Shown: one piece after another, positions 11,976-29,615 of the stretch | Position numbering within the stretch: the stretch's first letter is position 1 | How the letters are laid out: every line of letters starts with the position of its first letter | Assembly (NCBI GenBank): GCA_028286645.1 | Contig: JAQBRF010000004.1 | Span: 408,942 to 472,941, forward strand | Length of the DNA: 64,000 nt | Direction: 5' to 3' | DNA from: Candidatus Nomurabacteria bacterium | GTDB taxonomy: Bacteria; Patescibacteriota; Minisyncoccia; Phycocordibacterales; UBA5272 | Translations under genes and position numbers: made by a program | Notes under the pieces: model-generated | What the model saw: only the letters and a program-made list of their open reading frames with translations | What the model was told of the DNA's origin: nothing | The model's database searches: none

Positions 11976-11980
11976 GTAAA

Positions 11981-12514
11981 TCACCCGGGAGCAGAACACT
12001 CCGGGAATTTCGAGAAGATCTCCTTCTGAAGACCTGTGAGGTAAACGACACGAAACCAGAAAGGAGGAAAAATGCCGTGGCAGTTATGTTTTATGGCCTC
12101 CACGTTAGCTGACCATTCGTCGACCCTGCGGCTCTTTCTCATAAGTTCGGCGACTTCTTCCTCGCTCATGCCGTAGCGCTCGTGTTCTTCCTTTGCGCAC
12201 GCCTCCTGGAGGAGCCGATACCCTTCACGGATGAAAAGCTCCATGTGATTATGGTAGACACTTCCAGGACGAACGTCCCGAGGTTGGCCTTCGAGGTATT
12301 GCGCAGTACTCGGTGACCCTTCGCAGCTCTTTTCCCCCTCAATGTCATACCACGGCAGAAGATGCCGGGCTGACGCAGTAAAGCAGGTGGCATTGCCGGC
12401 ATAGAGCCCGACGTACGCAGCGTTGTTGCGATCCGGGACCGGAGTACGGCATTTGTCGCAGAGCGGCTTTCCTTTGTCGTTGTATTCGGTAATTACTGTA
12501 AAGACAAGCATGAC
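11981..12514 (-). CDS. hypothetical protein on a GC-rich islet (likely horizontally acquired)
   Basis: ORF with GGAGA RBS before the internal Met (MLVFTVITEY...). GC clearly above flanks. Own strong terminator. No recognisable domain. Confidence 0.5.
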   Translation of the reverse strand, partial: VMLVFTVITEYNDKGKPLCDKCRTPVPDRNNAAYVGLYAGNATCFTASARHLLPWYDIEGEKSCEGSPSTAQYLEGQPRDVRPGSVYHNHMELFIREGYRLLQEACAKEEHERYGMSEEEVAELMRKSRRVDEWSANVEAIKHNCHGIFPPFWFRVVYLTGLQKEIFSKFPECSAPG

Positions 12515-12828
12515 GGTCTCCTTCAAATTTAGTGTGCGTTTCCGCACCCTAAAGAAGAAAATCACCATTTAAGACTGGGTGCGGTTCTGATTGATCCAAG
12601 AAAGTTGTTAGCTGTGCTTCATGATTCCCCCCACATAAAAATGAGCAGATAAATACAGTATAACATATTTGCCCGATATTGTCAATATTGAAAATCCCCT
12701 ATTTATTATGGCCATATTTCGGAATTGGTTAGAAAATAAGATGAGTACAATGCAAAGGAATTTTTTGAGACTAAAACGTACATACGTTGCGTGAGCAAAA
12801 GATTCTCTTAACGGAATAATCGCTTATA

Positions 12829-17412: not shown

Positions 17413-17458
17413 ATAAGATCAAGTATACACTGCCGGAGATCTAGATTTATGTATACAC

Positions 17459-18109
17459 TTGATTAATATGTGGACGATTACAGGCTTCTTTTCAAATCTT
17501 TTTAAAGTTTTTTTTCCGCCTTCCTGCTTGGGGTGTAAATCTAAAAATGTTTCAATATGCCGCACATGTCTGCAGAAAGTGAGCCGGGCAGTTGAAGCTC
17601 CTTATATTTATATGACAAGCATTTACAGTTATAAAGATCAGCTTATAAGAAACTCAATCAGAAAGATCAAATATTATCACAGAAAAGATTTGATCGACCC
17701 CTTAACGGATGAATTAGCAAAAGAAATTTTAAATGAAGCTAATGGCTATAGACTAATGGCTAATGACTGGACTTTGGTCCCCATCCCCATGTCAAGATTT
17801 AGAAAATATATGCGAGGCTATAACCAGGCAGAGTTGATTGCGACATCTTTAGGAGAAAAATGTAATATTCATGTTGACCATTCTGTTCTTAAGCGTTCTC
17901 GCAGCCCGATAAGCCAGGTGCATACCCGCACCAGAAGTGAACGACTTAAAAATCAAAATAATAGTTTTAAAGTTTGCAAAGACATTAAAGGAAGGAATTT
18001 TATTTTAGTAGATGATGTTACTACAACAGGCGCAACTATTTCCGAAGCAAGGAAACAACTATTGAAGACCGGAGCGCGAGAAGTGCTTGCAGTAACCATA
18101 GCCCATTGA
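17459..18109 (+). CDS. comFC: ComF family phosphoribosyltransferase-domain competence protein
   Basis: N-terminal double zinc ribbon (CLGCKS...CRTCLQK) plus PRTase motif FILVDDVTTTGATI. Confidence 0.75.
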   Translation: MINMWTITGFFSNLFKVFFPPSCLGCKSKNVSICRTCLQKVSRAVEAPYIYMTSIYSYKDQLIRNSIRKIKYYHRKDLIDPLTDELAKEILNEANGYRLMANDWTLVPIPMSRFRKYMRGYNQAELIATSLGEKCNIHVDHSVLKRSRSPISQVHTRTRSERLKNQNNSFKVCKDIKGRNFILVDDVTTTGATISEARKQLLKTGAREVLAVTIAH

Positions 18110-18141
18110 CTTAACATATTATTAACATTAGTATTCCAAAC

Positions 18142-18735
18142 ATGAACCCTTCTATGACACCTTCTGGGAAAGAAAGGAACTACATTCCGTGGAATCGGAA
18201 GTGGAATGTAGTTAGACGACATTTACCAATCATTCTTAAGCCAACGGCTGCGGGCTTAATCCTTGTGATTATTTGGAAACTTGTTTTATATGATAATGGA
18301 ATCTTTTTTTCAAAACATTCGGAGAATCCCATTTTGTTTCTTATAATGCCGCTCGTTGCATTTATTTATGTCATTTTTGCAAGCGTAGCCGTAGAATCAG
18401 TCTTTTCAGAATATAAAATAATATCTAAGTGCGTAGTTACAAGAGATTTAGAAACATTTCTTCTTTATAGAGATGAGCAGCTTCCCATTATGATGCACAT
18501 TCTTGTCGGCTCTCCGTCATTTATACTTATTATTCTTTCACTTTTTTTTAATTATGATGATGCCATAATCGGCGCTGTAGCTATTTTTCTCATCACTTTC
18601 GTAGTCGTCTTAACATGGGTTATATCCACTGAGCTTGATGATTATGAAAGAAGCATTTGGTTTAAGGAAAAAATTCCTAAAGAGTGGTATGAGATTGACA
18701 TTGAATCATTCTTCAAAGAAAAATCTAAGTTTTAA
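18142..18735 (+). CDS. hypothetical membrane protein
   Basis: 197 aa, 4-5 predicted TM helices. Confidence 0.4.
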   Translation: MNPSMTPSGKERNYIPWNRKWNVVRRHLPIILKPTAAGLILVIIWKLVLYDNGIFFSKHSENPILFLIMPLVAFIYVIFASVAVESVFSEYKIISKCVVTRDLETFLLYRDEQLPIMMHILVGSPSFILIILSLFFNYDDAIIGAVAIFLITFVVVLTWVISTELDDYERSIWFKEKIPKEWYEIDIESFFKEKSKF

Positions 18736-19156
18736 TCTTTATATCATCTATATTAGCGACAGTTAGCCAGGCGTTTCCCGTCCCAAACCCTTCTTTATTT
18801 ATTTGAAAGGGTTTTTGAATTAGTGCCGGACGCGCTAAGTAAACTAAAATGCAATACTTCGGACACTTGCCCCAAGTCTTACAATCGCTATTAACTATAC
18901 AGATTTTCTTTCCATACTTTGTTACTATTTTTTGCGCAGCATCCATATCCTTTATCTCAAACTGCTCTACTTTTATTACTTTTGCAATAGCCGTTACCGG
19001 CTTGCCAGAATCTTTTAAATAAATTACATCTCCCGGCTTTACTTTATCCCATGGATCTCTTTTCGTCTGATACCATCTAGACTCAATAGTTTTCTTACCG
19101 TCGATAATCTTATCAATCATCTTCCAAGACGGATTCATTATTGCAACGTGGTCCAT
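18725..19156 (-). CDS. ASCH (PUA-like) domain protein
   Basis: 143 aa. Pattern IESRWY...PGDVIYL matches the ASCH fold. Preceded by the heptad leader motif. Confidence 0.5.
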   Translation of the reverse strand: MDHVAIMNPSWKMIDKIIDGKKTIESRWYQTKRDPWDKVKPGDVIYLKDSGKPVTAIAKVIKVEQFEIKDMDAAQKIVTKYGKKICIVNSDCKTWGKCPKYCILVYLARPALIQKPFQINKEGFGTGNAWLTVANIDDIKIKT

Positions 19157-19203
19157 ATAGCTATATAGCAGGCATTAGATTTTAGACGTTAGATAATACA
19201 TTT

Positions 19204-19770
19204 TTAATACTTTCGAAAGAGTTTTTTGAAATCTTCTTCCATATAATATTTAACTAAATTGTACGCGATAATATATACAGTGCCTACAATAAACACTTCC
19301 CAGATACCAGTTACATAAGAATAAATAAGTGTAGGAATAACATAGTACCAAGCCAATTCGGAAATAATGTGCACAAAGCTATGATCTCTTACCTTATCTC
19401 CAAAGTAATCTTTCATTGCACCGAATATACTGAATACCAAGAAAAAAGTAATAAAACTAGTTGGTTCTATTGTTTGAGTAAATAAGAATGTAATAATTAT
19501 TATCACGGTTGCGATAGCATGATTCCAGTAGTCTATTCTCATTCTTACGATAAAGGCGAGAACCATTGCCATAACCAGATTGGCTACATATATATTTGAA
19601 ATAATTAAAAGAGCACCAAATAAGCCCCAGAGTATTCCCATCATTATGATTGCTCCTTTAAACCATTCCCTTACTCCATGCTCATTGAATAGATCTGCCA
19701 TCTTCATAGACGATCCATACAATAAAGAAAGTGTAATTAAAATCGGAATTGAGGATAAATAGATAATCAT
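19204..19770 (-). CDS. hypothetical membrane protein
   Basis: 188 aa, 5-6 TM helices. Confidence 0.4.
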   Translation of the reverse strand: MIIYLSSIPILITLSLLYGSSMKMADLFNEHGVREWFKGAIIMMGILWGLFGALLIISNIYVANLVMAMVLAFIVRMRIDYWNHAIATVIIIITFLFTQTIEPTSFITFFLVFSIFGAMKDYFGDKVRDHSFVHIISELAWYYVIPTLIYSYVTGIWEVFIVGTVYIIAYNLVKYYMEEDFKKLFRKY

Positions 19771-19951
19771 AGTTATTACTTGAATTTCTTCATCTCTTTA
19801 ACAATATCCTTATAACAATAAATACAAATATGGAGCTTCTTTACGTTGTTGTTTTTCGGAGGAGAAAATAAAAGTCCGCCGAAGTCTTTCAATTCTTTTT
19901 TACATCTGTCGCATTTGGGTCGTATGGCCATATGCTTAGTATACCCCTTTT

Positions 19952-20599
19952 CTATTGCACTTTTACCGTCTGCATCATGTGATCTACTATATTATCTAAA
20001 TCAAATGATTTTGATTTTCTTTCACACGCTTCTTTATTTGTTCTGTCGGCATAATTACATGAAGTTAAAAGCAAATCCACTGTTAAACGCATTACATGTG
20101 ATGTATCAGCTTCCTTATGAGGAAAGGTATAAGTATAGATGGCATGAGTTCTTCCCTCTGCCCCTTCTGAGACAGTAGAAATACAATAGGTGTGGCCATT
20201 TATAACTTTACTTTCCACCTTTTTATTCTCGCTTATTTTATTAATATCTATAGTACAGCTAGATTCGTCGTCGACTATTTCTAGTTTAGGCGGCCACGTT
20301 ACAGGCAGAATATAAATATTTCCTAAAGATGAAAGATAATTAAATGTAACTGTAGACCCATTACTTTCTGTTGTAGCGTTTAATACCTCATCTTTTGTCT
20401 TTGTGCATTCACTGGTAACACATTTAGTTATTGTATGAATTTTATTTGCTACGCGCGGACTAAAAATAAAGAATGAGTCAATAACAACAACAGCAAGAAG
20501 CATTATGATTAATCCAGTAAGAATGTGTACGACATGTTGATCGTGTGTCTCAACTTTTTTTCTAGGCATGAGTAAATTGTAGCACCGAAATATATTCAC
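19952..20599 (-). CDS. membrane-anchored Cys-containing secreted protein, paralog A
   Basis: N-terminal TM. Conserved INGHTYC...SEGA.G..Y.YTFP...C.NY....K..CE......FD...IVD.M.QT.K motifs shared with 20663..21304. Confidence 0.5.
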   Translation of the reverse strand: MNIFRCYNLLMPRKKVETHDQHVVHILTGLIIMLLAVVVIDSFFIFSPRVANKIHTITKCVTSECTKTKDEVLNATTESNGSTVTFNYLSSLGNIYILPVTWPPKLEIVDDESSCTIDINKISENKKVESKVINGHTYCISTVSEGAEGRTHAIYTYTFPHKEADTSHVMRLTVDLLLTSCNYADRTNKEACERKSKSFDLDNIVDHMMQTVKVQ

Positions 20600-20662
20600 G
20601 CTACAAAGTTATACAGATATTGATTAATTATATAAATATTCTTACGAAAGAATTTAATTACT

Positions 20663-21304
20663 TTATTTAATTGTTTGGACCATTTGATCTACAATCTTTC
20701 CTATATCAAATGTTGCTCGCTCATTTTCACATGTTGTTTTGTTTGGCTCATCATAATTTCCACACTGGATAAATCGCAAGCTAAATGTAAAGGTTAGCGC
20801 TACTTCTTTAGGATTATATGGAAATGTATACGCATACATTGTATACATACTTCCGGCGGCTCCTTCTGATCTTTTCGTCACACAATATGTGTGCCCATTA
20901 ATTAGTTGTACTTTAGTGATTCCACCCGAGGCAGTTTCAGACCCGGCCTCTGTACAATCAAAGACTTCGTCCGTGGCTTGAAGTATGGGTGGCCAATCAG
21001 TTTGAATTATATATGGTGTTGAAATGCTTTTCGGATATTTAAATGTTAAAGACAGCTCATCACTTGAACTGCTGGTTCCCCAGCTGCTGGTATCAAGTTG
21101 CGGACACTCTGCAAATTCACACATTGGGCCGCCTCTTCCTACACTAGATCCATCCGGACAAATCTTGGCTTCCGTAGTACATGCCGTTGGTTCATTGTCA
21201 TTGCTCTTAGAGACATACTGAGACCATGCCAAACCTCCTACCACTATTATTAATAAGATAACCACAATAGGAACAATGAGGCTTTTATTTTGTTTAGATT
21301 CCAC
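20663..21304 (-). CDS. membrane-anchored Cys-containing secreted protein, paralog B
   Basis: 213 aa. Clear sequence similarity to 19952..20599 over the C-terminal ~130 aa. Confidence 0.5.
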   Translation of the reverse strand: MESKQNKSLIVPIVVILLIIVVGGLAWSQYVSKSNDNEPTACTTEAKICPDGSSVGRGGPMCEFAECPQLDTSSWGTSSSSDELSLTFKYPKSISTPYIIQTDWPPILQATDEVFDCTEAGSETASGGITKVQLINGHTYCVTKRSEGAAGSMYTMYAYTFPYNPKEVALTFTFSLRFIQCGNYDEPNKTTCENERATFDIGKIVDQMVQTIK

Positions 21305-21369
21305 ATACTTAGTTTAACAGTTAAATAAGTAAGTTGTGACGATAACAATAGGAATCAATAAACCAGACA

Positions 21370-21400
21370 AATAAAAAAGTCCTCGCGCACGCGCGAGGGC
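21370..21400 (-). terminator. rho-independent terminator
   Basis: CCTCGCGCACGCGCGAGG hairpin followed by a T-run on the minus strand. Confidence 0.5.
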
Positions 21401-21423
21401 TTGATCATCATGTGAGTGCCAGC

Positions 21424-21633
21424 TCAGATGATGATCTCTTTTGGTTGAGGAACGACTTCGTACACCGGCACCGGCAAGTCCGGGTATGTCTGGTACATCG
21501 TCGGCGACGGAACTGGTACTTGTTGCACAGGTGCCGGTTGCTTGACCTGCGACATCATCATCGCAAACACGCTGATCGCTATGATCGCGAGCGAACACGT
21601 CTTCACCACGTCCGAAAAGTCAGTCCAATTCAT
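21424..21633 (-). CDS. small Pro-rich secreted protein (GC-rich islet)
   Basis: 69 aa, signal-peptide-like N-terminus, AAGGGAGAG RBS 6 nt upstream. Confidence 0.45.
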   Translation of the reverse strand: MNWTDFSDVVKTCSLAIIAISVFAMMMSQVKQPAPVQQVPVPSPTMYQTYPDLPVPVYEVVPQPKEIII

Positions 21634-21671
21634 GTTGCTCTCCCTTCTTGGTTATGAGTGATCGAGAGCAT

Positions 21672-22094
21672 CTAGCCAAGCCAGCCAGCGTAAGTGAGAA
21701 ACGTGGTCTCGCGTTTGTGGAAGTCGTATTGCAATGTTTCGGGGTGATCTCCTGGGCTCGTGATCATGATGATACCAATCGCATCCCGTTTAATCGCGGA
21801 GAACACATGCGTTTGTGTTGCAGGATCTCTGGTCACCACAAGCGTACTCCGATAAATCTCGCGCGTGCGTTTGTAGCTGCCCACATTTTCGATCTCGCTC
21901 ACGGTGACATTGTACGTCCCGGGAGCCTTGAAGTGCACTGTGTAGGCGGCGGCTTTTTCATCCCAGCCGTCTTTCGAAGGCTGCACGATGACCCGGCCTC
22001 CGAACATTGGAATATCCCTGGTCTTGTCTCCGTAGACTTGTGTGAAGTAAAAAGCCCCTACTGCCAGTATAAATAATGCAAAAAGCCATCTCAT
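21672..22094 (-). CDS. secreted hypothetical protein (GC-rich islet)
   Basis: 140 aa, signal peptide MRWLFALFILAVGAF, AAGGAAAGGGA RBS. Confidence 0.5.
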   Translation of the reverse strand: MRWLFALFILAVGAFYFTQVYGDKTRDIPMFGGRVIVQPSKDGWDEKAAAYTVHFKAPGTYNVTVSEIENVGSYKRTREIYRSTLVVTRDPATQTHVFSAIKRDAIGIIMITSPGDHPETLQYDFHKRETTFLTYAGWLG

Positions 22095-22197
22095 ATTCCC
22101 TTTCCTTTTCTTTTAAATTAATCAAAGGCGCAAGCGCCGACAGGTTGTATACAATCAAATATATTAGATCATGTTTGTCAATATAAGAAAATTACAA

Positions 22198-22635
22198 CTA
22201 AACACTTTTCTGAATAATCGAAAATATGTTTTTATTTATAAAATTCTCTGGTATTTCATTTGATTTAAACCATTTCCACTCACCGAATTTCTCCGGCTCC
22301 ATGAGCTTTGCTTCTTGATTTGTAGAACATACAAAAACTTCTACAATATCTCCCTCCTTTGCTCCATCTACCTTTCCAATATATTCTTCAATTTTAAGAT
22401 CTGTGATTCCGGTCTCTTCTTCTGTTTCTCTTTTTAAGCATTCTTCTACAGTTTCTCCTTCATCGCCCCTTCCTCCTGGAGTTGTCCAAAATGATCCTAT
22501 CCATTTGTCTGGTGTGTAGTTGCGCAATCCTAATAATATTTTCCCATCACGAATTATAAGCGCCGAAGTTGCTGTCTCGCGGGTTACTTGTGTTTTTAAA
22601 ATTTGGTCCATGTGAAAAAAGTATATCAGTTTCAT
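22198..22635 (-). CDS. NUDIX hydrolase
   Basis: Nudix box GGRGDEGETVEECLKRETEEETGI. AT-rich native composition. TAG stop. Confidence 0.8.
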   Translation of the reverse strand: MKLIYFFHMDQILKTQVTRETATSALIIRDGKILLGLRNYTPDKWIGSFWTTPGGRGDEGETVEECLKRETEEETGITDLKIEEYIGKVDGAKEGDIVEVFVCSTNQEAKLMEPEKFGEWKWFKSNEIPENFINKNIFSIIQKSV

Positions 22636-22682
22636 TTTACAAAAAGAAAAGCTCCGACCGAAGCCGGAGGTTGTCGTCTGTA

Positions 22683-23375
22683 CTAACGTGGGCGACGGGT
22701 GCGCGTACCGAGGAAGCTGGATGCGATGAGGACATCGACTATTCCGCGGTCAGAACCGCCGAGCGAACTTGCGAAGATCGACGCCATCAATGCATCCACA
22801 CCTCCGCTGCCAGAGGACTGTTTCGAACAGGCTACACCATAGGCGCAGATGAGCTCGACGATGAGGCGCATTTGAGGCCCCTCGAGTTTCACCCCTTCCA
22901 GCGCCAAACCGACAGCGAGCTGCATGTTCTGCATACGCACTTCCGGCTCCGGTGGGTACATGGCGCCCGCAAGCAGCGCCTCGAGTTGGGCGATTTTTTT
23001 GTTGTTGCGTTGTGCGCCGAGAGTCTTCCAGTCCGCCAACTGGAAGGGAGCATCGGAGGGCTGCGGTAAGCTTTGATACCACCCGAGCTCTTCGACACCC
23101 GCGGCGACCATCACGGTGCTGTCGGGCCGAATGTGGTCATGAGGACGGCCGTCTTGATCGATGAAGTAAGGCGCTTCCCACGTGTAGGGGCTGCACACAT
23201 CCTTCGCGAGGTAGATCCTCGAAGCTCTGAAGGAGAGATCGAAGGCTCCGTTTTCATGTTTCTTGAGGACCAACACTTTCGTGTCGGCGCATTCGTCGCA
23301 GCCGAAGCCCGTGATCACATCTCCCGGACGCAGGGTCGAGCTGCTCATGGCTTCGCCAACCTTTTTCGTGTGCAT
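22683..23375 (-). CDS. hypothetical protein (GC-rich islet)
   Basis: 230 aa, AAAGGAA RBS, downstream hairpin+T-run terminator at ~22646-22680. No recognisable domain. Confidence 0.5.
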   Translation of the reverse strand: MHTKKVGEAMSSSTLRPGDVITGFGCDECADTKVLVLKKHENGAFDLSFRASRIYLAKDVCSPYTWEAPYFIDQDGRPHDHIRPDSTVMVAAGVEELGWYQSLPQPSDAPFQLADWKTLGAQRNNKKIAQLEALLAGAMYPPEPEVRMQNMQLAVGLALEGVKLEGPQMRLIVELICAYGVACSKQSSGSGGVDALMASIFASSLGGSDRGIVDVLIASSFLGTRTRRPR

Positions 23376-23529
23376 CGCATTCCTTTCTATAGTGTTTGTG
23401 TTGAAATGAGCGCTTCTACTTATTTAAGTAAACAGTACTTCACCACCCTAACAATAAAATCATAATTTGTCAATGAGAGTATAAAAAGAAAAGCCCGTCT
23501 TGCGACGGGTGTGTTTGAAACGGGGGTGA

Positions 23530-23976
23530 TTACTCCCACCATTTCCAGAATGGGAAGAGAGCGCCGATACCGAAGCTCCCGAAACGAATGCCCCCGCCAC
23601 CGGCCAGGCAACCGAATCCGCCGAGGCAAGCGCCGACCGTTACGAAGAGAAATCCGATGTCGAGGTTCGGCCCGATGTAAAAGGCCACTCTCTTGTACCA
23701 GGCCTTACCTGCCGCTTTCTCGGCGGCCAGAGCAAGCTCCGGAAGTAAAAGGGGGAGAATGCGCATTGCACGGATTGCCTTCGGGATATTCCGGAAAGGA
23801 ACCTGAATCATTCGCCTTTCGTCGAGGATTCCTCCGACACTATCCGCGATGCTCGCCAGAACATCTCCACCTCCCCCGCCGCCATCACCCGTGGAAATAT
23901 CGTCTGAGATACCGCTGCCTTCTCCCAGGATTCCTCCAAGGTCGATCACGATCCCTAATGCCACGCCGAAATGCAT
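23530..23976 (-). CDS. glycine-rich protein with GxxxG-rich hydrophobic C-terminus
   Basis: GGGAGGG RBS before MHFGVALG. poly-Gly stretch. C-terminal FLFVTVGACLGGFGCLAGGGGIRFGSFGIGALFPFWKWWE. Confidence 0.45.
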   Translation of the reverse strand: MHFGVALGIVIDLGGILGEGSGISDDISTGDGGGGGGDVLASIADSVGGILDERRMIQVPFRNIPKAIRAMRILPLLLPELALAAEKAAGKAWYKRVAFYIGPNLDIGFLFVTVGACLGGFGCLAGGGGIRFGSFGIGALFPFWKWWE

Positions 23977-24066
23977 AATGTGCCCTCCCAAAATTCCAAC
24001 TGTTACAGAAGCAACCGAAGTTGACTAGTTATAAACTATAATACCATTAATGTTCTGTCAATTACA

Positions 24067-24113
24067 CCTAAACACTGCTTCTATATTATTCCATCTGGGT
24101 CTAGAACGAATAC
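24067..24113 (-). repeat. degenerate copy C of the VOC-gene 3' end (att-like direct repeat)
   Basis: ~45/48 identical to 25845..25893 with one 1-nt deletion. Similarity extends ~15 bp past the former stop codon. Confidence 0.6.
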
Positions 24114-24157
24114 ATCTAATAGTTTTCTCAAATACAAAAGAAAAACCGCACCTGCTT

Positions 24158-24616
24158 TCAGTGCGGACAAGGAACATCTGTGTTAATCTCCATATCGAAA
24201 TACTCATGGAGCATTTGCGGTTCTACTCTAAATATTTTGTATGGAATGATGGGCGTGGTAGCCACATAGAAAAGTCCATTCCGTACAGGTGCAAAATATT
24301 CGCGCGGAAGAACGTACACATAACCCGTGCGATAGCGCACATTCCTTCCTGTTACGATAACCTTGCGGTTGCGTAACCCCCAATGAAGGTACCCGTGCTT
24401 GCTCCGTATACGGAGTACTGCGTGAAGGATAGCTATCCCGGATGATGTTGTTGCATAGATTGCGTTTAAATTATTCTCCGGAATCCCCGTCGTGCAAATC
24501 GCTTTTCTCGGCTCCACTTTACTAAGTAGCCACGGCGAGCCATGAAATAAAAAATTCTCTCGGTCAATGCGTATCAAAGGATATACGTTCGATATTCTCT
24601 TTTGAATTGCTCTCAT
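24158..24616 (-). CDS. hypothetical protein (cassette A, GC-rich)
   Basis: GGAGAAG RBS before the second Met (MRAIQKRIS...). 152 aa. Confidence 0.45.
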   Translation of the reverse strand: MRAIQKRISNVYPLIRIDRENFLFHGSPWLLSKVEPRKAICTTGIPENNLNAIYATTSSGIAILHAVLRIRSKHGYLHWGLRNRKVIVTGRNVRYRTGYVYVLPREYFAPVRNGLFYVATTPIIPYKIFRVEPQMLHEYFDMEINTDVPCPH

Positions 24617-24679
24617 GATACTTCTCCGCATGTAGTGGTTTCTATCAAACTACAGCACAGATGATACTTAGTCAATCAT

Positions 24680-24728
24680 CCCTAAACACTGCTTCTATAT
24701 TATTTACATTTGGATCTAGGACGAATGC
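24680..24728 (-). repeat. copy B of the VOC-gene 3' end (att-like direct repeat)
   Basis: 47/49 identical to 25845..25893. Encodes AFVLDPNVNNIEAVFRDD*. Confidence 0.65.
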
Positions 24729-24796
24729 AGGAGTAACTTCAATTATAAAAAAAATAGACCACCGAGGTGGTCTATTACTCGGCGCGGAAGAGGTCC

Positions 24797-25237
24797 TTAC
24801 TCTTCGTATACGCGCAGAATCTTGATGAACGGATAGCGTTTGGCGCTGTACGCGTAACCCCGCATGATGTCTCTCATGCCGCGGTACTCTTCATCGTAAC
24901 CGTGGTTGTACGAAATGCGATTTGCCCACCAGTAATACCTGAATCCTTCGGTGCGGACAAACACTTCGTACTCTTCTGGCACAAACTGCACCAGTCTGCA
25001 GTTGAAGGCACGACTTGTCGTGGTTATGCACACTCGTAGCGGGGTGGTGGTGACTTTCGCCACCTTCACCCATGGAGCTGATAAATTCCAGCCCGGCGTG
25101 TCACGCTTCACCTCGCCCGTAAATGCATTTCGCATGATACCTACCTGAGTGGGCTCGCTATGATGCATGAACGGAAAGTAGATGAGCGCGCCGAGGAGAA
25201 GAAGGGCGCCGGCAACGAGGATGTGTAGATGCTTCAC
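24797..25237 (-). CDS. membrane-anchored hypothetical protein (cassette B, paralog 1)
   Basis: GTG start overlapping the upstream stop (GTGA). N-terminal TM. Shared motifs P..VCI......NC.LVQF and YAY.....YPF with 25234..25752. Confidence 0.5.
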   Translation of the reverse strand: MKHLHILVAGALLLLGALIYFPFMHHSEPTQVGIMRNAFTGEVKRDTPGWNLSAPWVKVAKVTTTPLRVCITTTSRAFNCRLVQFVPEEYEVFVRTEGFRYYWWANRISYNHGYDEEYRGMRDIMRGYAYSAKRYPFIKILRVYEE

Positions 25238-25752
25238 TTGGCATCCTCGTTCTTGAGTTCTCGCACGACGGAAAGGAATGGATATATCTTCCCCGTTCCT
25301 TCGTATGCGTAACTCTTGAGGATTTCGGAAAAGTCCGTTGTTCTTTCTTTTCCGCCCTTTCTACTACCTCCGGTTCCCGGCCCTTCGTAGTCCCGCCGGC
25401 CATGCCAGGAAAGGAAGAGATCGAGTCCCTTCGCATTGAACTGCACAAGCTTGCAGTTGAGCACACGCTGATTCGCATTGATGCACACCTGCATCGGCCG
25501 CAAGTCGACCGTATGATACTGCTCGACGATCGGCGTTCGTACGAAGTAGCCGGTCCTCTCGAGTGTCGTGATCTTCCCAGTGCGGGTATTGAACACATAG
25601 CCCTGTTGGTAGGTGTCGACGAACTGGACAAACCATATCCAGGTCACGCCGATGATCACGAGTGCAATGATGGTGAGTCCCGCCAGAAAATACCCCAACT
25701 TTAGCCAGAGCCTGCGCGAATTGAAGCCCTCTTTCATACTTTTCTCAGCCAT
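25234..25752 (-). CDS. membrane-anchored hypothetical protein (cassette B, paralog 2)
   Basis: AGAGGA RBS. 172 aa. N-terminal TM. Weak SPFH/band-7-like pattern (low confidence). Confidence 0.5.
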   Translation of the reverse strand: MAEKSMKEGFNSRRLWLKLGYFLAGLTIIALVIIGVTWIWFVQFVDTYQQGYVFNTRTGKITTLERTGYFVRTPIVEQYHTVDLRPMQVCINANQRVLNCKLVQFNAKGLDLFLSWHGRRDYEGPGTGGSRKGGKERTTDFSEILKSYAYEGTGKIYPFLSVVRELKNEDAK

Positions 25753-25833
25753 TATGAATGTCCTCTTGTGTCGTTAATCGGAACAGCCCACATGCACTGT
25801 CTAGAATTACACTATAATATCTTCCGATGTTCG

Positions 25834-26211
25834 TCAACAGTACCCCCTAAACACTGCTTCTATATTATTTCCATCTGGATCTAGGACGAATGCGGCGTAA
25901 TAGTTTGGTCCGTAGATTGGACGACCCCCTGGTGCTCCATTATCTTTTCCACCTACTTTTATTGCTTCTTTATAAAATGCGTTCACTTCTACATTTCCAT
26001 TAGCTTTATACGCTAAATGCGTCGGACCGCTTATCGGCTCATCATTTGTGATCCAAGTATCATTCTTCCCAACATTTGCGAATCCTAAAATCTGCACTCC
26101 CTAGTAATTAAAATCCATGGCGAGTGTGTATCCAAGTGGTAGAAGTGCTTGCTTATAAAATTCTCTAGCTTTGTTTATATCCGAAACTCGGATGGTGATG
26201 TAGTCGAGCAT
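25834..26211 (-). pseudogene. VOC/glyoxalase-family gene interrupted by an in-frame TAG. Its 3' end is the repeated att-like sequence.
   Basis: Single reading frame MLDYITIRVSDINKAREFYKQALLPLGYTLAMDFNY-TAG-GVQILGF...AAFVLDPDGNNIEAVFRGYC. VOC betaalphabetabetabeta signature. Confidence 0.55.
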
Positions 26212-26226
26212 AAACAATATATTAAA

Positions 26227-26610
26227 TTATATGTTCTGCATTGTTTCCAGAGGAGACTCTTTAGTTTCTCCTTTTTCTGTATATTTCACTATACATGTAT
26301 TTAAAAAAGAATCATAATAAATACCCACCACATTATTCCATCTCTGCTGAAGAGAGGTAAGCAAGGAATTACATTTAAGGGTATTGTCGAATAATTGTTT
26401 GTCTTCTTCTTTCTTGGTCTGTTCTACCTTTGTCTCCGCTTCTATTAATTGTTGTTTTTCAATTGATTTCTGCTTATTTATTTGAGCGGCATAGAAAAAA
26501 CCTCCTAAAACAATACATCCAAAAATTATACTTATAGATAGAATTAAGCTATTTTTATTCATAATAATGAGTTTACCCTTTTTATGGAACCACCCTACTC
26601 CTTTATACAC
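26227..26610 (-). CDS. small membrane protein, co-oriented downstream of the P-loop NTPase
   Basis: 127 aa, one TM (SLILSISIIFGCIVLGGFFYA), coiled-coil, 35-nt gap to the NTPase gene. Confidence 0.45.
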   Translation of the reverse strand: MYKGVGWFHKKGKLIIMNKNSLILSISIIFGCIVLGGFFYAAQINKQKSIEKQQLIEAETKVEQTKKEEDKQLFDNTLKCNSLLTSLQQRWNNVVGIYYDSFLNTCIVKYTEKGETKESPLETMQNI

Positions 26611-26645
26611 TTTCTGTAAAGGTCAGACTTTAAAAAATAAGAAAA

Positions 26646-28139
26646 TTACTTCTTTCTCTTTTGCGCAAACCAATACAGACCTCTATGTAGGAAAAAGGAA
26701 TACTCCTTAAATTTTTTTACAAGAAGAGGATAATTACTCGATATATATTTAAAATGTATAACCTTATCATTTTTTTCTTTAAAACCGATCACACCATACC
26801 ACCATAATTCTTGGATAAATTCTTGAATTCTATTCCATCCTAATTTTGTTTTTACTCCTAAATATTGACCTAATTCCGTTTTAAGCTGTGAAACATTAAA
26901 ACCTTCTTTCCCACTTAATAAGTCTATAAGTTCATTAATATTATCCTGGCTAAAATTATATTTTAAGAGACGACTTATCAAAAATAGTTCATCTTTTAAT
27001 TCTTTTGTAAAATATTCCGAGTATTCTATTTCTGCAGAATCAATATTCTCAAAAGTTGCTGGATGTTTTGTGCTTAATCTATCTCTCATAGCATAACAAA
27101 ACTTGAGAAAATCTCTTGGTCGATTAAATGATATGGCGATCATATAAGCGTAAAAGTTGGTAGCATAACGATTTGTTTCAAAGTTTTCTAATGTTTTTGA
27201 AAAGATTGTATCTGGAAACTGGCTACGTAATGCTTTTATTGGATCACTCAAACTTTCTTGAAGTCTGTCTTGGTAGTATGGAATACGACGTATTAAAAGA
27301 CTTGCAAAACTTTTTTCATTCCATTCAAGTTTTAATGAGTCATTTATGAGTTTGTTGATATTTGATCCTTGCATAAACTCAAACAAATCATCTCTAATAA
27401 GACATATAAATCTCAATTTTTTACCTGAATCTCTAAAAATAGAATTATACAGGTCCAAACTAAGAAGTAATTCTCTAATCGTAACTAAATCTTCTTTAAG
27501 TTTTTTTTCATCTGCCTCATCTAAATAATCACTGATATCATCAATAAATATAAAAATAGTATCTTCTTTTGGCGTTGTTTCTTTTAACGAATTTATAAGA
27601 GAAGATGGCGCATTGGATATGACTGACCTAGTAGACTGCGACTCATCTTCTGTATTTGCTCCGCCTTCTGCCTTTGCGAACAAAGAATTTAACCATCCCT
27701 TTACAGAAAATCCTGTCTTATTTACTCTTCTTGTTTCTATAAACGTCTCATAATCTGAAGTATCTTGTAGACCGTTTTGTGTTAAAAAATCTAACCAGTA
27801 ACTTTCTGAACTCCCAATAAAAAGCTTTTCTTCAAGAAATTTTTGAATTGTTTTTATTATTATAAAAAAGAGTATTGAATTTAAATGATCGTTGAAACTC
27901 TCTCCTTCTGTAAGAGAAACACTCCTTATAGATATTCTATAGGATAATTTAATTCCATAATCTTGAGACTTTTGCTCTAAATACCTAGCTATGGCAGTTT
28001 TTCCTGTTCCTTTCCTTCCGCAAAGAATTGAATAGTTAGATGTAGTTATTGAATTAATAAACCCCGCATCATGAAAACACTCAAATAAATAATCGTCTTT
28101 TTCAGCTTCGGTCTGACGCTGGATTTTAAATTCTGACAT
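26646..28139 (-). CDS. predicted P-loop NTPase (KAP/STAND-like), unknown function
   Basis: 497 aa. Walker A ILCGRKGTGKTAI, Walker B IFIFIDDISDYLDE ~170 aa later, long helical C-terminal region. Confidence 0.6.
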   Translation of the reverse strand: MSEFKIQRQTEAEKDDYLFECFHDAGFINSITTSNYSILCGRKGTGKTAIARYLEQKSQDYGIKLSYRISIRSVSLTEGESFNDHLNSILFFIIIKTIQKFLEEKLFIGSSESYWLDFLTQNGLQDTSDYETFIETRRVNKTGFSVKGWLNSLFAKAEGGANTEDESQSTRSVISNAPSSLINSLKETTPKEDTIFIFIDDISDYLDEADEKKLKEDLVTIRELLLSLDLYNSIFRDSGKKLRFICLIRDDLFEFMQGSNINKLINDSLKLEWNEKSFASLLIRRIPYYQDRLQESLSDPIKALRSQFPDTIFSKTLENFETNRYATNFYAYMIAISFNRPRDFLKFCYAMRDRLSTKHPATFENIDSAEIEYSEYFTKELKDELFLISRLLKYNFSQDNINELIDLLSGKEGFNVSQLKTELGQYLGVKTKLGWNRIQEFIQELWWYGVIGFKEKNDKVIHFKYISSNYPLLVKKFKEYSFFLHRGLYWFAQKRKK

Positions 28140-28256
28140 AGCTATAAAATAAAAAGCTTTATCCTAATATTTCCATAGTCTACTCCCTAAAAAGGATAAT
28201 ACTAGCTGCTTTTAAATTTGCTTTCTCTCCTTTTTGTTATGTAAATTTAATAAGTC

Positions 28257-28604
28257 TTACATCCCGCCCTTGCTCACTTCCATGATATCTATGAAAGATG
28301 TTGGAATTGCGAAATGAGGATTTTCCTTAAACATTTCAGTAACTTCTTCAGCAGATTCAGCTTGTACGATGCACATATAATTCATGTCATTCGTTACTGG
28401 CTTTGCTCCAGTTGCGTCCACTCGAGTATTCTTCCCAAGAGGAAGTCCTTCACCCACAAATGATGCTTTATGCTTTTCCGTCCACGCCATCATATCAGCT
28501 CCTAGCTTCTCCCCTTGTTCCTTCATTTTCTCCGGTGGAGTATTCTTCTTCCACTCTTCCATTGTCTCCACAGGCACACGATATATAATTACAAATTTTT
28601 TCAT
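28257..28604 (-). CDS. hypothetical protein
   Basis: 115-aa ORF divergent from the cassette array. No motif. Confidence 0.45.
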   Translation of the reverse strand: MKKFVIIYRVPVETMEEWKKNTPPEKMKEQGEKLGADMMAWTEKHKASFVGEGLPLGKNTRVDATGAKPVTNDMNYMCIVQAESAEEVTEMFKENPHFAIPTSFIDIMEVSKGGM

Positions 28605-28622
28605 ATGTATATTCTAGCACAT

Positions 28623-28651
28623 TGCCTTATTTTCTTTTATGTTGTAGATTC
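28623..28651 (+). promoter_or_regulatory. promoter of cassette 1 (TTGCCT-N17-TAGATT)
   Basis: Same -35/-10 architecture and spacing as the intercistronic modules R1-R4. Confidence 0.45.
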
Positions 28652-28681
28652 AAGGAGATAGATCACAGGGAGATTTGTGCC

Positions 28682-28915
28682 ATGAATATTCCGAAAGACA
28701 AGAACTACCCGCCAGACGCTGTGCAGTGCAACGAATGTGGTGGGTGGGGTGAAACAGAAAGAAACGAAGACTGCGAGACCTGTGGAGGAAAAGGATGGCT
28801 TCCGCATGGCCATCCGAAAGGCAGAAAGTGCTATCGCGAGGTATGCACCAACACCATCCCTCCCGCGCAAGTCGCCGTTTACTGCACAAATGAATGCGCC
28901 CACCTCGACGCATAA
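28682..28915 (+). CDS. small Cys-rich zinc-ribbon protein (cassette 1)
   Basis: GGGAGA RBS. 77 aa with CNECGG...CETCGG plus further Cys/His. Confidence 0.5.
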   Translation: MNIPKDKNYPPDAVQCNECGGWGETERNEDCETCGGKGWLPHGHPKGRKCYREVCTNTIPPAQVAVYCTNECAHLDA

Positions 28916-28931
28916 CGGCATCCCTGCAATA

Positions 28932-28998
28932 CCCCGGGCCTCGTGGCCTGGGATTTTTTATTTGCTTTTCAATTTTATCTATTGTAGGTTTAGGGGGA
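28932..28998 (+). promoter_or_regulatory. terminator-promoter-RBS module R1
   Basis: GC hairpin CCCGGGCC-TCGT-GGCCTGGG + T-run, then TTGCTT-N17-TAGGTT, then TAGGGGGAA. 67/67 identical to R3. Confidence 0.6.
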
Positions 28999-29035
28999 AA
29001 TGCACCGTACCTAACTCGCCTGAGGAGACATCACA

Positions 29036-29433
29036 TGACTGTACCGAAACAGGACGAAAAAGACGCCATATGCTTCCTCGCGTTTTACATCAGCAGCGAA
29101 GGACCCCCTGCGTTCTACGTATTGGGGCCGAATCTCCCCACCTCGGACTTCGGTCATGAGAGCCTTGAGAGGTTTGCCTCAAATGTAGCAACAGCGATCG
29201 GAGGTGCCGGTACTTGCCACATGCAGCCACCGTATGCCGAGTATCTCATCATCAAGGACGACCAGGTGAAAGTCTCCGGGGGAAGCGCGGGCCTCCGGAT
29301 CGCCGAAGATGTGGCGAAGAGCAAGAAGATCGAGGGGTACCTCAATTCTAACAACCGCGCCAAAGACGCGCTGCTCAACCTTTCCCCGCTCATTCGCTGG
29401 CGGACAGTGCAGCAAATCATTATCCCTCTGTAA
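29036..29433 (+). CDS. hypothetical protein (cassette 2)
   Basis: GAGGAG RBS 6 nt upstream. 132 aa. GC-rich. Confidence 0.5.
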
Positions 29434-29448
29434 CTGCGACCACGATCG

Positions 29449-29600
29449 ACCCGAGCCCTCACGGCTCGGGATTTTCTTTCCTATAGCCGAGCAAAGCACG
29501 CTATAGGATTGCACCCTATACCGAGCTCTGCTCTGGTGTAGGGTTTTGCTTAAATTTTTTAAATGGTGTAGTGTAATTTTGAACCAGACCTGATTTCCTA
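29449..29600 (+). promoter_or_regulatory. terminator-promoter module R2 (variant with two hairpins)
   Basis: CCGAGCC-CTCA-CGGCTCGG + T-run. Second hairpin ACCCTATACC/GGTGTAGGGT. TTGCTT-N17-TAGTGT. Confidence 0.5.
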
Positions 29601-29615
29601 CCAACTGGAGCCGAT

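What the first reader, a model, noticed from the sequence alone, without database searches (positions are those of the whole stretch)
24067..26211. Three direct copies of a VOC-gene 3' end flanking GC-rich cassettes: tandem site-specific insertions
Seen directly in the sequence:
- The last ~49 nt of the VOC/glyoxalase gene at 25845..25893 encode AFVLDPDGNNIEAVFRG.
- That stretch recurs at 24680..24728 (47/49 identical, encoding AFVLDPNVNNIEAVFRDD*).
- It recurs again at 24067..24113 (more degenerate, one 1-nt deletion). Similarity in this copy runs ~15 bp past the former stop codon.
- All three copies are in the same orientation.
- GC-rich segments lie between them. The 24116..24679 segment carries one 152-aa gene. 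The 24729..25844 segment carries two overlapping paralogous membrane-protein genes with their own terminator.

Interpretation:
- This is the classic footprint of integrative elements that target the 3' end of a protein gene and bring a replacement 3' end.
- The e14/icd case is the established precedent.
- Here it seems to have happened at least twice in tandem.
- The oldest att copy lies farthest from the gene and is the most decayed.
- The cassettes are tiny (0.56 and 1.1 kb) and carry no integrase.
- They would therefore need a trans-acting recombinase, as integron cassettes do.

An attB sitting inside a protein-coding 3' end, serving mini-cassettes in a reduced genome, would be new.
Basis: seen in the sequence. 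Interest (0 to 1): 0.8.

Follow-up and report, generated by a model that had tools for sequence, protein, structure and literature searches.

The report
Gene-cassette pile-up behind a VOC gene
Behind a small enzyme gene of a tiny-genome (CPR, Nomurabacteria) bacterium, several foreign GC-rich mini-genes, each with its own promoter and terminator, have been added one after another; each addition left a copy of the enzyme gene's tail, and no integrase is in sight, which points to an unusual, cheap way of acquiring genes.

Summary
Three direct copies of the last ~49-66 nt of a VOC/glyoxalase gene lie at the stated coordinates. They appear in two assemblies, and a related metagenome contig (L086) has the same kind of duplication.

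- Read on the minus strand, each copy is followed by a sigma70-type promoter, one or two GC-rich ORFan genes and an intrinsic terminator.
- A fourth, truncated copy is fused to the downstream NUDIX gene.
- The VOC gene carries an in-frame TAG.
- About 14 such promoter-ORF-terminator cassettes lie in the 64 kb, including a second array with its own 75-nt terminator+promoter junction repeat.

Three related genomes carry different cassettes directly after the VOC stop codon, so the site is a true hotspot. Cassette A, from its -35 box to its terminator, also occurs in two other genomic contexts without the VOC tail.

No recombinase or transposase domain was found in the window. The repeat has no hairpin or dyad symmetry. 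Junction modules are mosaic and are shared between unrelated cargos.

I favour integrase-independent accretion and shuffling by homologous plus microhomology recombination, like the PeSL modules of T4-type phages (about 0.45). Integrase-less elements stacked at protein-gene 3' ends (CIMEs) are already known.

The parts
25834..26211 (-). VOC/glyoxalase gene, with an in-frame TAG at 26103..26101. Its present stop codon (TGA, 25836..25834) lies inside the -35 box of cassette A.
   Evidence: Pfam PF00903, E = 9.6e-7. Translation. Intact orthologues of 79-80% identity in L086 and L087.
25841..25910 (-). Copy 1 of the VOC 3'-end block. This is the coding end of the gene; the 49-nt core is 25845-25893.
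24753..25837 (-). Cassette A. Promoter TTGACG-17-TAGTGT (25837..25809); 5'UTR motif TAGACAGTG..GCTGTT; two overlapping paralogous membrane-protein genes (25752..25234 and 25237..24797); terminator (24776..24753).
   Evidence: Orthologous in L086 at about 77% nt identity. The same unit occurs in other contexts, L092 and L093-L095. About 200 homologues, mostly CPR, plus jumbo phages.
24680..24745 (-). Copy 2 of the VOC 3'-end block (displaced, non-coding). Homology between the window and L086 ends exactly at its promoter-proximal end (window 24680 = L086 11493).
24146..24675 (-). Cassette B. Promoter TTGACT-17-TAGTTT (24675..24647); 152-aa ORFan (24616..24158); terminator (24166..24146).
   Evidence: The only match among 5.8e9 proteins is itself, JWN37_863. 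No Pfam or PHROG hit.
24067..24130 (-). Copy 3 of the VOC 3'-end block. It has a 1-nt deletion, keeps the native stop region, and its similarity to VOC starts at AAACTATTA.
23494..24061 (-). Cassette C. Its promoter TTGACA-17-TAGTTT is about 70% like cassette A's promoter up to about +10. It encodes a Gly-rich 148-aa ORFan (23976..23530) and ends in a terminator (23509..23494).
22652..23473 (-). Cassette D. Promoter TTGACA-17-TAGGGT; 230-aa ORFan (23375..22683, 59% GC); terminator (22669..22652). It joins cassette C by a plain terminator-promoter junction with no VOC block.
22190..22635 (-). AT-rich NUDIX gene lying inside the array. Its last ~22 nt plus the following TGTAATT (22190-22222) form a fourth, truncated VOC-tail copy, followed by TTTTCTTATATTGACA.
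   Evidence: Pfam NUDIX. 16/17 match to copy 3 and 27/31 match to the L086 VOC-to-A junction; no shuffle out of 400 reached either score.
21381..22176 (-). Cassette E. 140-aa ORFan (22094..21672) and 69-aa ORFan (21633..21424); terminator (21398..21381).
28620..30660 (+). Second array: four GC-rich cassettes plus a remnant. The ORFs are 28682-28915, 29035-29433, 29616-30062 and 30179-30544. They are separated by composite terminator + promoter junctions (TTGCTT-17-TAGGTT-TAGGGGGAA). Two of the junctions are 96% identical over 75 nt, and one is a mosaic.
   Evidence: The same junction module is kept at about 91% in L086 in front of a different cargo.

Best explanation
**What it is**
- The locus is a cassette-accretion hotspot in a Candidatus Nomurabacteria (CPR) chromosome.
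- The mobile units are self-contained transcription units of 0.5-1.1 kb: a sigma70-type promoter, a short leader, one or two ORFan genes and an intrinsic terminator.
- They have foreign (GC-rich) composition and were most likely acquired from GC-richer CPR relatives or their phages.
- They are stacked head to tail directly after the VOC stop codon.
- Each addition left a displaced copy of the last ~50-66 nt of VOC between the previous terminator and the next promoter.

**How I think it works (inferred, not shown)**
- The additions and later swaps are driven by the cell's general recombination acting on taken-up DNA, not by a dedicated integrase.
- A DNA fragment or small circle carrying 'VOC tail - promoter - cargo - terminator' pairs with the resident VOC tail.
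- It is joined either by a Campbell-type single crossover or by homology-facilitated illegitimate recombination, using a microhomology such as AAACTA at the other end.
- This duplicates the tail.
- Once two tails or two terminator/promoter junctions exist, they act as portable homology. They can loop out, insert, replace and convert cassettes, exactly as PeSL promoter/stem-loop modules do in T4-type phage genomes.
- The VOC tail is therefore the local junction module of this array. It is not a specific att site.
For: **Shown**
- The three copies plus a fourth remnant are real and lie in cassette junctions.
- Cassette architecture is stereotyped: promoter hits at all nine array junctions, and terminators at 22 found against 9.6 expected.
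- Cassettes have foreign composition.
- Three related genomes carry different cassettes at the same point.
- Window/L086 homology runs through VOC, cassette A, its terminator and the displaced tail at 77-88% identity, and stops at the end of the tail.
- Cassette A, from -35 box to terminator, occurs in three unrelated flanking contexts. It has native composition in a 58%-GC CPR genome.
- Other arrays use other junction repeats.
  - The plus-strand array uses a 75-nt terminator+promoter repeat.
  - L092 uses a 35-73-nt repeat at four junctions.
- Junction modules are shared between unrelated cargos and are mosaic.
  - winP5 is about 91% like L086 cassette 2's promoter.
  - winP5 combines the 5' half of P3 with the 3' half of P2/P4.
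  - The cassette at window 12690 matches the L087 VOC-to-F leader at 24/29.
  - The NUDIX-to-E junction matches the L086 VOC-to-A junction at 27/31.
- The left ends of the duplicated tail differ between events (-49, -66, -22).
- No recombinase or transposase domain occurs in the 64 kb, in L097 or in L086.
- The block has no secondary structure or dyad symmetry.

**Context from the window and the literature**
- A type IV pilus/competence-like cluster lies at 4-17 kb.
- Saccharibacteria, another CPR group, are naturally competent (PMC10187176, listed).
- PeSL modules mediate this kind of shuffling and form mini-circles in T4-type phages (PMC2839356, PMC4122927).
Against: - The first duplication of the tail still needs a non-homologous step that I cannot demonstrate.
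- Three or four additions at one site, with the repeat ending exactly at the native stop codon, also match the classic look of integrases that target gene 3' ends.
- The motif GTGTTTAG(G) recurs at cassette 5' junctions outside VOC, so a short specific core cannot be excluded.
  - It occurs at the NUDIX-to-E junction and at L093 upstream of cassette A.
  - GGTTTAGGGGG occurs in the plus-strand array.
  - With one mismatch there are 8 hits against 3.2 expected.
- Only 64 kb of a 514-kb contig could be searched for recombinases.
- The signal for gene conversion between in-genome copies is weak: 3 differences within the genome against 6 between positional orthologues.
- No circles or polymorphic junctions could be looked for in reads.
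Confidence: 0.45

Rival explanations
1. A site-specific recombinase encoded elsewhere in the genome acts in trans, as in an integron. It inserts circular mini-cassettes at an attB inside or at the end of the VOC gene. Each cassette carries an attP with a surrogate VOC 3' end, so successive insertions stack, with the oldest farthest from the gene.
For: - The repeats cover exactly the gene's 3' end up to the native stop, and every cassette in the VOC-proximal part is flanked by them.
- The same point is used in three genomes by different cassettes.
- Decay and truncation increase with distance from VOC, including the fourth remnant.
- GTGTTTAG(G) recurs at other cassette 5' junctions.
- A marginal 26-nt VOC-tail remnant lies upstream of cassette A in L093.
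- There is precedent for integrase-less elements accreted at protein-gene 3' ends (PMC7563491).
Against: - No recombinase was found in the 64 kb, in 2.7 kb beyond it, or on L086.
- Cassette A in L092 lacks any VOC-like sequence and is flanked by a different repeat.
- Other arrays have unrelated junction repeats, so one recombinase cannot explain them all.
- The block has no dyad symmetry or hairpin.
- The left boundaries differ between events.
- No phage or plasmid-like contig carries the block: 0 hits in IMG/VR.
Confidence: 0.3
2. The cassettes are the last remnants of full-size integrative elements (prophages, ICEs or IMEs with their own integrases). These elements integrated one after another at the VOC 3' end and were then deleted down to the moron-like gene next to the att site. 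The result would be CIME-type decay in a streamlined genome.
For: - Tandem att-flanked, integrase-less remnants at protein-gene 3' ends are common in streptococci, including 130-220-bp microCIMEs.
- Cassette A's gene pair occurs in jumbo phages.
- Cassettes look like phage morons: own promoter, own terminator, and a deviant GC content.
Against: - About 14 cassettes in 64 kb all have the same clean promoter-ORF-terminator form, with no pseudogene debris.
- Many are single insertions without att-like repeats.
- Cassette A has the same compact boundaries in four contexts.
- No PHROG hits for any cassette protein.
Confidence: 0.1
3. One tandem duplication of the segment 'VOC tail + promoter + cassette', by unequal crossing-over or slippage, produced the repeats. 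The cargo downstream of each duplicated promoter was later replaced.
For: - The promoter after copy 3 is about 70% like cassette A's promoter up to about +10.
- Promoter modules are conserved while cargo differs.
Against: - Copy 2's promoter is not similar to the others.
- This model needs additional replacement events anyway, so it merges with the best explanation.
- It does not explain the different left boundaries.
Confidence: 0.08
4. Long target-site duplication. An integrase makes staggered cuts at the two ends of the ~50-66-nt VOC tail, as Cas1 does at a CRISPR repeat or a casposase at its target. It inserts a cassette with no homology to the site, and gap repair duplicates the tail.
For: - The geometry is the same as leader-proximal spacer addition.
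- The cassette carries no tail of its own in other contexts.
- L092 shows a different block duplicated at each junction.
Against: - No Cas1, casposase or other integrase was found.
- Duplicated lengths differ between events.
- The solitary cassette A in L093 has no long flanking repeat.
- No terminal inverted repeats on the cassettes.
Confidence: 0.04
5. Assembly artefact: chimeric joining of GC-rich and AT-rich contigs at a short repeat.
For: There are abrupt GC changes at the repeat copies.
Against: - The structure is identical in an independent Logan assembly.
- The same structure occurs at about 77% identity in a contig from another metagenome.
- The junctions are functional-looking promoter/terminator units.
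- The repeats are shorter than, or diverged within, typical k-mers.
Confidence: 0.01

Closest known systems
PeSLs (promoter-early stem-loop regulatory cassettes) of T4-type phages (Arbiol et al. 2010, PMC2839356; Comeau et al. 2014, PMC4122927)
   Same: - Small composite terminator + sigma70-promoter modules flank ORFan genes in hyperplastic regions.
- The modules are conserved while the cargo differs between close relatives.
- The modules act as portable homology for insertion, deletion and replacement.
- No dedicated recombinase is needed.
- The plus-strand array (28620-30660) fits this description closely.
   Different: - This is a cellular CPR chromosome, not a phage.
- In the VOC array the junction module includes the 3' end of a host protein gene.
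- The cargo is strongly GC-deviant.
- Mini-circles have not been shown here.
Accretion of ICEs/IMEs and CIMEs/microCIMEs at the 3' ends of protein genes (rpmG, rpsI, fda, rplL) in streptococci (PMC7563491), and e14/phage 21 at icd (from my own knowledge)
   Same: - Direct repeats consist of the 3' end of a protein gene and flank each of several tandem inserts.
- The inserts themselves lack an integrase.
- The repeat ends at the end of the gene.
   Different: - No integrase-bearing partner element is present.
- The inserts are single transcription units of 0.5-1.1 kb.
- The same cassette occurs elsewhere without the repeat.
- Other arrays in the same genome use unrelated junctions.
Integron cassette arrays, especially sedentary chromosomal integrons with array-specific attC repeats (from my own knowledge)
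   Same: - Arrays of co-oriented, mostly ORFan, compositionally foreign single-gene cassettes of 0.5-1 kb.
- The cassettes are separated by a repeat that is homogeneous within an array.
- Any recombinase would act in trans on the cassettes.
   Different: - No intI next to the array.
- The repeat does not fold into an attC-like hairpin.
- No RYYYAAC/GTTRRRY core pair.
- Every cassette has its own promoter and terminator.
Phage morons (from my own knowledge)
   Same: A single gene flanked by its own promoter and factor-independent terminator, with a nucleotide composition unlike its surroundings, inserted between two genes.
   Different: - Not in a prophage.
- Stacked in arrays with repeated junctions.
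- Spread over a cellular chromosome.
Homology-facilitated illegitimate recombination during natural transformation (concept as used in PMC6382021 and PMC8116780, listed)
   Same: One homologous anchor (the VOC gene) plus a microhomology join at the other end would add foreign DNA and can duplicate part of the anchor.
   Different: This is inferred only. No experimental system exists for this organism, and recurrence at one site has not been described for this process.

Membership tests
Integron | An intI tyrosine recombinase gene adjacent to the array, with attI and Pc | tested here: not met
   - No recombinase domain in any ORF of at least 110 aa of the window.
- The genes upstream of VOC are a 127-aa protein and a 497-aa ATPase.
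- In L086 the upstream genes are DUF2130 and a helicase.
Integron | attC: an imperfect palindrome that folds as single-stranded DNA, with R''/R' cores RYYYAAC and GTTRRRY | tested here: not met
   - All three blocks, on both strands, fold no better than shuffles (z from +0.05 to +1.5).
- The motif is GTTTAGG, not GTTRRRY.
Integron | Co-oriented, mostly promoterless cassettes | tested here: not met
   The cassettes are co-oriented, but each has its own TTGnnn-17-TAGnnT promoter and its own terminator.
Gene-3'-end integrative elements (e14/icd type, ICE/IME/CIME accretion) | Direct repeats made of the target gene's 3' end flank each insert | tested here: met
Gene-3'-end integrative elements (e14/icd type, ICE/IME/CIME accretion) | An integrase on the element or on a tandem partner | tested here: not met
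   None was found in the window, L097 or L086.
Gene-3'-end integrative elements (e14/icd type, ICE/IME/CIME accretion) | The element carries its own copy of the att/3'-end sequence (attP) wherever it is found | tested here: inconclusive
   - Cassette A in L092 has no VOC-like sequence.
- In L093 there is a 23/26 remnant about 50 nt upstream of the -35 box. Its p is 0.003-0.007 before correction for about 20 tests.
PeSL-type regulatory cassettes | A composite intrinsic terminator + sigma70-like promoter module repeated between ORFan genes | tested here: met
   - Plus-strand array: 75-nt module, 96% identical between two junctions.
- Five promoter modules align.
- Terminators are listed.
- In the VOC array the VOC tail sits between terminator and promoter.
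PeSL-type regulatory cassettes | Modules conserved between related genomes while the flanked genes differ; modules are mosaic | tested here: met
   - winP5 is about 91% like L086 cassette 2's promoter, with different cargo.
- Mosaic P5.
- Leaders shared between unrelated cargos.
PeSL-type regulatory cassettes | Mini-circles formed by recombination between modules; located in a T4-type phage genome | not testable with these tools
   No read data are available. The replicon here is a cellular chromosome, with RNase P RNA, tRNAs and SecA.
Tycheposon-like or tRNA-targeting islands | Integration into a tRNA/tmRNA 3' end with partial tRNA repeats, and an element-encoded tyrosine recombinase | tested here: not met
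   The target is a protein gene, there is no partial tRNA in the array, and there is no recombinase.
CRISPR/casposon-type staggered integration | A Cas1-family integrase and a duplication of fixed length | tested here: not met
   No Cas1 domain was found (Pfam calls). Duplicated lengths differ: about 49, 66 and 30 nt.

The most novel reading that the evidence does not exclude
CPR bacteria may possess a dedicated, so far undescribed cassette system. A recombinase encoded elsewhere in the genome would insert autonomous promoter-ORF-terminator mini-cassettes at a short core (about GTGTTTAGG / GGTTTAGGGGG) at the stop codons of host genes and at terminator-promoter junctions. This would build integron-like arrays without attC hairpins and without an adjacent integrase.
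Probability: 0.2. Interest if true: 0.85.

Novelty: new variant of a known kind. Interest (0 to 1): 0.6.

Why it matters
- CPR/Patescibacteria have tiny genomes and few recognisable mobile elements, yet large strain-specific gene pools of unknown origin.
- This window shows about 14 self-contained foreign mini-transcription units in 64 kb. They sit at hotspots that differ between related genomes and have repeated junction modules.
- If general recombination on short portable junctions is enough to capture and shuffle ready-to-express genes, this would explain how such reduced, competent epibionts keep a flexible gene pool without integrases.
- It would also extend a mechanism known only from T4-type phages to cellular genomes.
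- If instead a trans-acting recombinase is responsible, it would be a new integron-like system.
- The two alternatives can be separated with the existing read data and the full MAG.

Tried and rejected
- **Exact-protein look-ups.** Look-ups of cassette A1, cassette B and NUDIX failed because of start-codon choice.
- **JGI metagenome DNA scans.** Two scans with the block (24-mer and degenerate 21-mer) gave 0 hits. L086-L088 came instead from the protein route.
- **IMG/VR scan with the block.** 0 hits.
- **IMG/VR scan with the plus-strand array promoter motif.** Three hits, all coincidental matches inside coding regions.
- **Plasmid collection.** No match.
- **Integron reading.** Rejected on three defining features (and the Pfam calls).
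- **The block as an UP element with fixed spacing.** Rejected, because the distance from the block end to the -35 box varies from 5 to 24 nt.
- **Strong purifying selection on the displaced copy.** Not supported. Its 88% identity between the window and L086 is similar to the neighbouring terminator region at about 83%.
- **Concerted evolution of in-genome copies.** Only a weak signal.
- **Literature searches.** No description of integrons or cassette arrays in CPR was found.
- **Extending the window to look for an integrase.** This added only 2.7 kb on the left.


Full report
**1.

The window is part of a 514-kb contig of a MAG named Candidatus Nomurabacteria bacterium, with locus tags JWN37_863 to JWN37_866 for the genes in question. 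It is cellular DNA:
- RNase P RNA and four tRNAs;
- SecA;
- a type IV pilus cluster, DNA ligase, LepA and others.

On the minus strand a VOC/glyoxalase gene runs from 26211 to 25834 (Pfam PF00903). Its last ~49 nt recur at 24680-24728 and 24067-24113 in the same orientation.
- In a common 49-column register, copy 1 and copy 2 differ at 3 positions.
- Copy 1 and copy 3 differ at 5 positions, including a 1-nt deletion.
- Chance would give about 1e-15 such pairs in 64 kb.
- An independent Logan assembly of run SRR13312974 is identical over 16646-28962.
- A contig from another metagenome has the same kind of structure (below). An assembly artefact is therefore excluded for practical purposes.

**2. 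What lies between and around the copies**

Read on the minus strand, each copy is followed by the same series of parts:
- within 5-24 nt, a promoter of the form TTGACn-17 nt-TAGnnT;
- a short leader with a Shine-Dalgarno sequence;
- one or two ORFs;
- a G+C-rich hairpin with a T-run;
- then the next copy.

The ORFs have GC3 of 0.45-0.70, against 0.21-0.40 in neighbouring host genes. None has a Pfam or PHROG family. The 152-aa protein of cassette B has no relative among 5.8 billion proteins except itself.

The two genes of cassette A are paralogues. They belong to a family of about 200 proteins found mostly in CPR bacteria and as the same gene pair in jumbo phages.

The array does not stop at copy 3:
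- Cassettes C and D follow, joined by a plain terminator-promoter junction.
- Next comes an AT-rich NUDIX gene whose last ~30 nt are a fourth, truncated VOC-tail copy. It matches copy 3 at 16/17 and the L086 VOC-to-A junction at 27/31, and no shuffle out of 400 reached either score.
- Cassette E comes last.

The VOC gene itself carries an in-frame TAG at codon 37. Its orthologues are intact.

**3. The same architecture elsewhere in the window**

A second array lies on the plus strand at 28620-30660. It has four cassettes and a remnant.
- They are separated by a composite terminator + promoter module.
- Two of the junctions are 96% identical over 75 nt.
- The fifth promoter is a mosaic of the 5' half of the third and the 3' half of the second and fourth.

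Single cassettes of the same build lie at these positions:
- about 11940-12690 (-);
- 31869-32440 (-);
- 33690-34205 (+);
- 46920-47530 (-);
- 53700-54110 (+).

That gives roughly 14 cassettes in 64 kb.

**4. Related genomes**

The GTDB scan found no close VOC relative. The protein database held two relatives of 79-80% identity.

*L086 (JGI, 15 kb)*
- It has an intact VOC.
- The orthologue of cassette A follows with the same boundaries.
- A displaced VOC tail follows that.
- Next come a promoter and a different, 41%-GC gene of 188 aa.
- The window/L086 alignment runs at 77-88% identity from the VOC start to the last base of the displaced tail. It then collapses.

*L087 and L088*
- They have an intact VOC followed directly by a promoter and yet another GC-rich cassette.
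- The point right after the VOC stop codon is therefore a hotspot used by different cassettes in three genomes.

*The second array in L086*
- It lies at the same place, next to the same 115-aa gene.
- Its cargo is completely different, but its promoter modules are homologous. One is about 91% identical to a window module, above the 77-80% background.
- An empty promoter-terminator scar is also present.

**5. What is the mobile unit?**

Cassette A can be compared in four contexts:
- the VOC locus (window and L086);
- L092, a GC-rich contig from the same sample;
- L093-L095, where it follows a PF06983 gene in a 32%-GC genome;
- L096, a 58%-GC CPR genome where it has native composition.

Findings from that comparison:
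- Homology spans from the -35 box, through a conserved leader (TAGACAGTG..GCTGTT), to the terminator and a few bases beyond. It does not extend further.
- In L092 the cassette is flanked by a different repeat of 35-73 nt, which recurs at four consecutive junctions.
- In L093 there is no long flanking repeat.
- The VOC tail is therefore not an intrinsic part of cassette A.
- One caveat: 23 of 26 nt of the tail's 3' end appear about 50 nt upstream of the promoter in L093. This is nominally significant but not after correction for multiple tests.

Leader and promoter modules are also shared between unrelated cargos:
- window 12690 against the L087 VOC-to-F junction, 24/29;
- the NUDIX-to-E junction against the L086 VOC-to-A junction, 27/31.

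**6. Mechanism**

The data show serial additions at one site, each leaving a tail copy. They do not show which enzyme is responsible.

*Against a dedicated site-specific recombinase*
- None is found in the 64 kb, in 2.7 kb beyond it, or on L086.
- The block has no hairpin or dyad symmetry.
- The left ends of the duplications differ (about -49, -66, -22).
- The same cassette sits in other repeats elsewhere.
- Different arrays use unrelated junction repeats.
- No viral contig carries the block.

*For homology-driven processes*
- Junction modules are mosaic and portable.
- Module conservation exceeds the genomic background.
- Everything distal to a tail copy has been replaced wholesale between the two lineages.
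- T4-type phages offer a direct precedent. There, terminator/promoter modules (PeSLs) mediate exactly such shuffling and form mini-circles (PMC2839356, PMC4122927).
- A pilus/competence-like cluster is adjacent. Natural competence has been shown for another CPR group (PMC10187176).

*Conclusion*
I therefore favour integrase-independent accretion, either by a Campbell-type single crossover or by homology-facilitated illegitimate recombination using the VOC tail. PeSL-like shuffling would follow. My confidence is about 0.45.

- The repeat ends exactly at the native stop.
- The site is reused.
- Decay grows with distance from VOC.
- The motif GTGTTTAG(G) recurs at other cassette 5' junctions (8 hits against 3.2 expected with one mismatch).

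Minor rivals are decayed full-size elements (CIME-type), one tandem duplication with later cargo replacement, and a staggered-cut duplication.

**7. Comparison with what is known, and novelty**

- Direct repeats of a protein gene's 3' end around tandem, integrase-less inserts are known: CIMEs and microCIMEs at rpmG, rpsI, fda and rplL (PMC7563491).
- The locus fails three defining integron features: an adjacent intI, an attC hairpin, and promoterless cassettes.
- It meets the sequence-level features of PeSL modules, but in a cellular CPR chromosome.
- I found no description of such arrays in CPR.
- I rate it a new variant of a known kind, with interest 0.6.
- The most novel reading not excluded is a dedicated integron-like system with a short core and a distant recombinase. 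I give it a probability of about 0.2.

**8. Limits**

- Only 64 kb of the genome, and three related loci, could be examined.
- There is no read-level evidence.
- The gene-conversion signal among copies is weak.

Noticed in passing
window 26101-26103 (- strand codon 37 of the VOC gene): There is an in-frame TAG in the VOC gene. It is present in both assemblies, while the orthologues in L086 and L087 have GAA/GAG (Glu) at this codon. The target gene is probably a pseudogene in this genome, although its 3' end is still kept.
   Followed up: partly
window 28620-30660 (+): A second array of four GC-rich ORFan cassettes plus a remnant. The cassettes are separated by composite terminator+promoter modules: two are 96% identical over 75 nt and one is a mosaic. 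The same locus in L086 (about 1450-4500) has homologous modules but entirely different cargo, plus an empty promoter-terminator scar.
   Followed up: yes
window 53447-53670 (+) and L086 ~1000-1200 (-): A GC-rich element of about 170-200 nt lies directly 3' of a tRNA: tRNA-Phe in the window and tRNA-Ser in L086. The two copies are about 70% identical. Each begins with a hairpin whose descending arm is an inverted copy of that tRNA's own 3' acceptor end, followed by GAGA, a hairpin with loop CCTGCG, and GGTTCGAAGGGCGGAGCG. There is no Rfam match. It could be a tRNA-linked ncRNA or the end of a tRNA-targeting element.
   Followed up: partly
window 11940-12690 (-), 31869-32440 (-), 33690-34205 (+), 46920-47530 (-), 53700-54110 (+): Solitary GC-rich promoter-ORF-terminator cassettes are inserted between AT-rich host genes, with no long flanking direct repeats. 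The leader of the cassette at 12690 matches the VOC-to-F junction of L087 at 24/29.
   Followed up: partly
L083 5303-6369 (LR756504.1, 636-kb uncultured phage); L084, L085 (IMG/VR contigs of 310 and 288 kb): The two-gene membrane-protein pair of cassette A occurs as the same adjacent pair in jumbo phage genomes, at the phage's own 25% GC. Protein identity is 42-54%. There is a weak SPFH/Band_7 hit (E = 0.008) for the first gene.
   Followed up: partly
L092 1-2890 (Logan, same run SRR13312974); L003 3416-3430: A GC-rich contig from the same sample carries cassette A (81% aa identity) in an array whose four junctions share a different repeat (AGTTCCAAyyTCGTysACGA..., plus a second hairpin AGAAAGACCGCTCATTTGAGCGGTCTTTCT). 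The 14-mer AGTTCCAACTTCGT also occurs in a Saccharibacteria contig.
   Followed up: no
window 26227-28139 (-) versus L086 5152-9970: The genes between the 115-aa gene and VOC differ between the two genomes. The window has a 497-aa P-loop ATPase (weak ATPase_2/nSTAND3 hits) plus a 127-aa membrane protein. L086 has DUF2130 plus a 1171-aa AAA_11/AAA_12 helicase with an MTES_1575 domain. This looks like a variable, defence-island-like slot next to the cassette hotspots.
   Followed up: no
L093 14825-17538: In the 32%-GC genome that carries a solitary cassette A, a rolling-circle Rep (REP_ORF2-G2P) and a large serine recombinase (Resolvase+Recombinase, 514 aa) lie about 5.5-8 kb downstream. No link to the cassette was established.
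   Followed up: no
window 5164-9404 (-): Four or five tandem paralogous pilin-like genes (N_methyl motif) lie next to a prepilin peptidase, PilC-like and PilB/PilT-like ATPases, and PilM/PilO. Together they form a complete type IV pilus/competence-type cluster 4-17 kb from the arrays.
   Followed up: no
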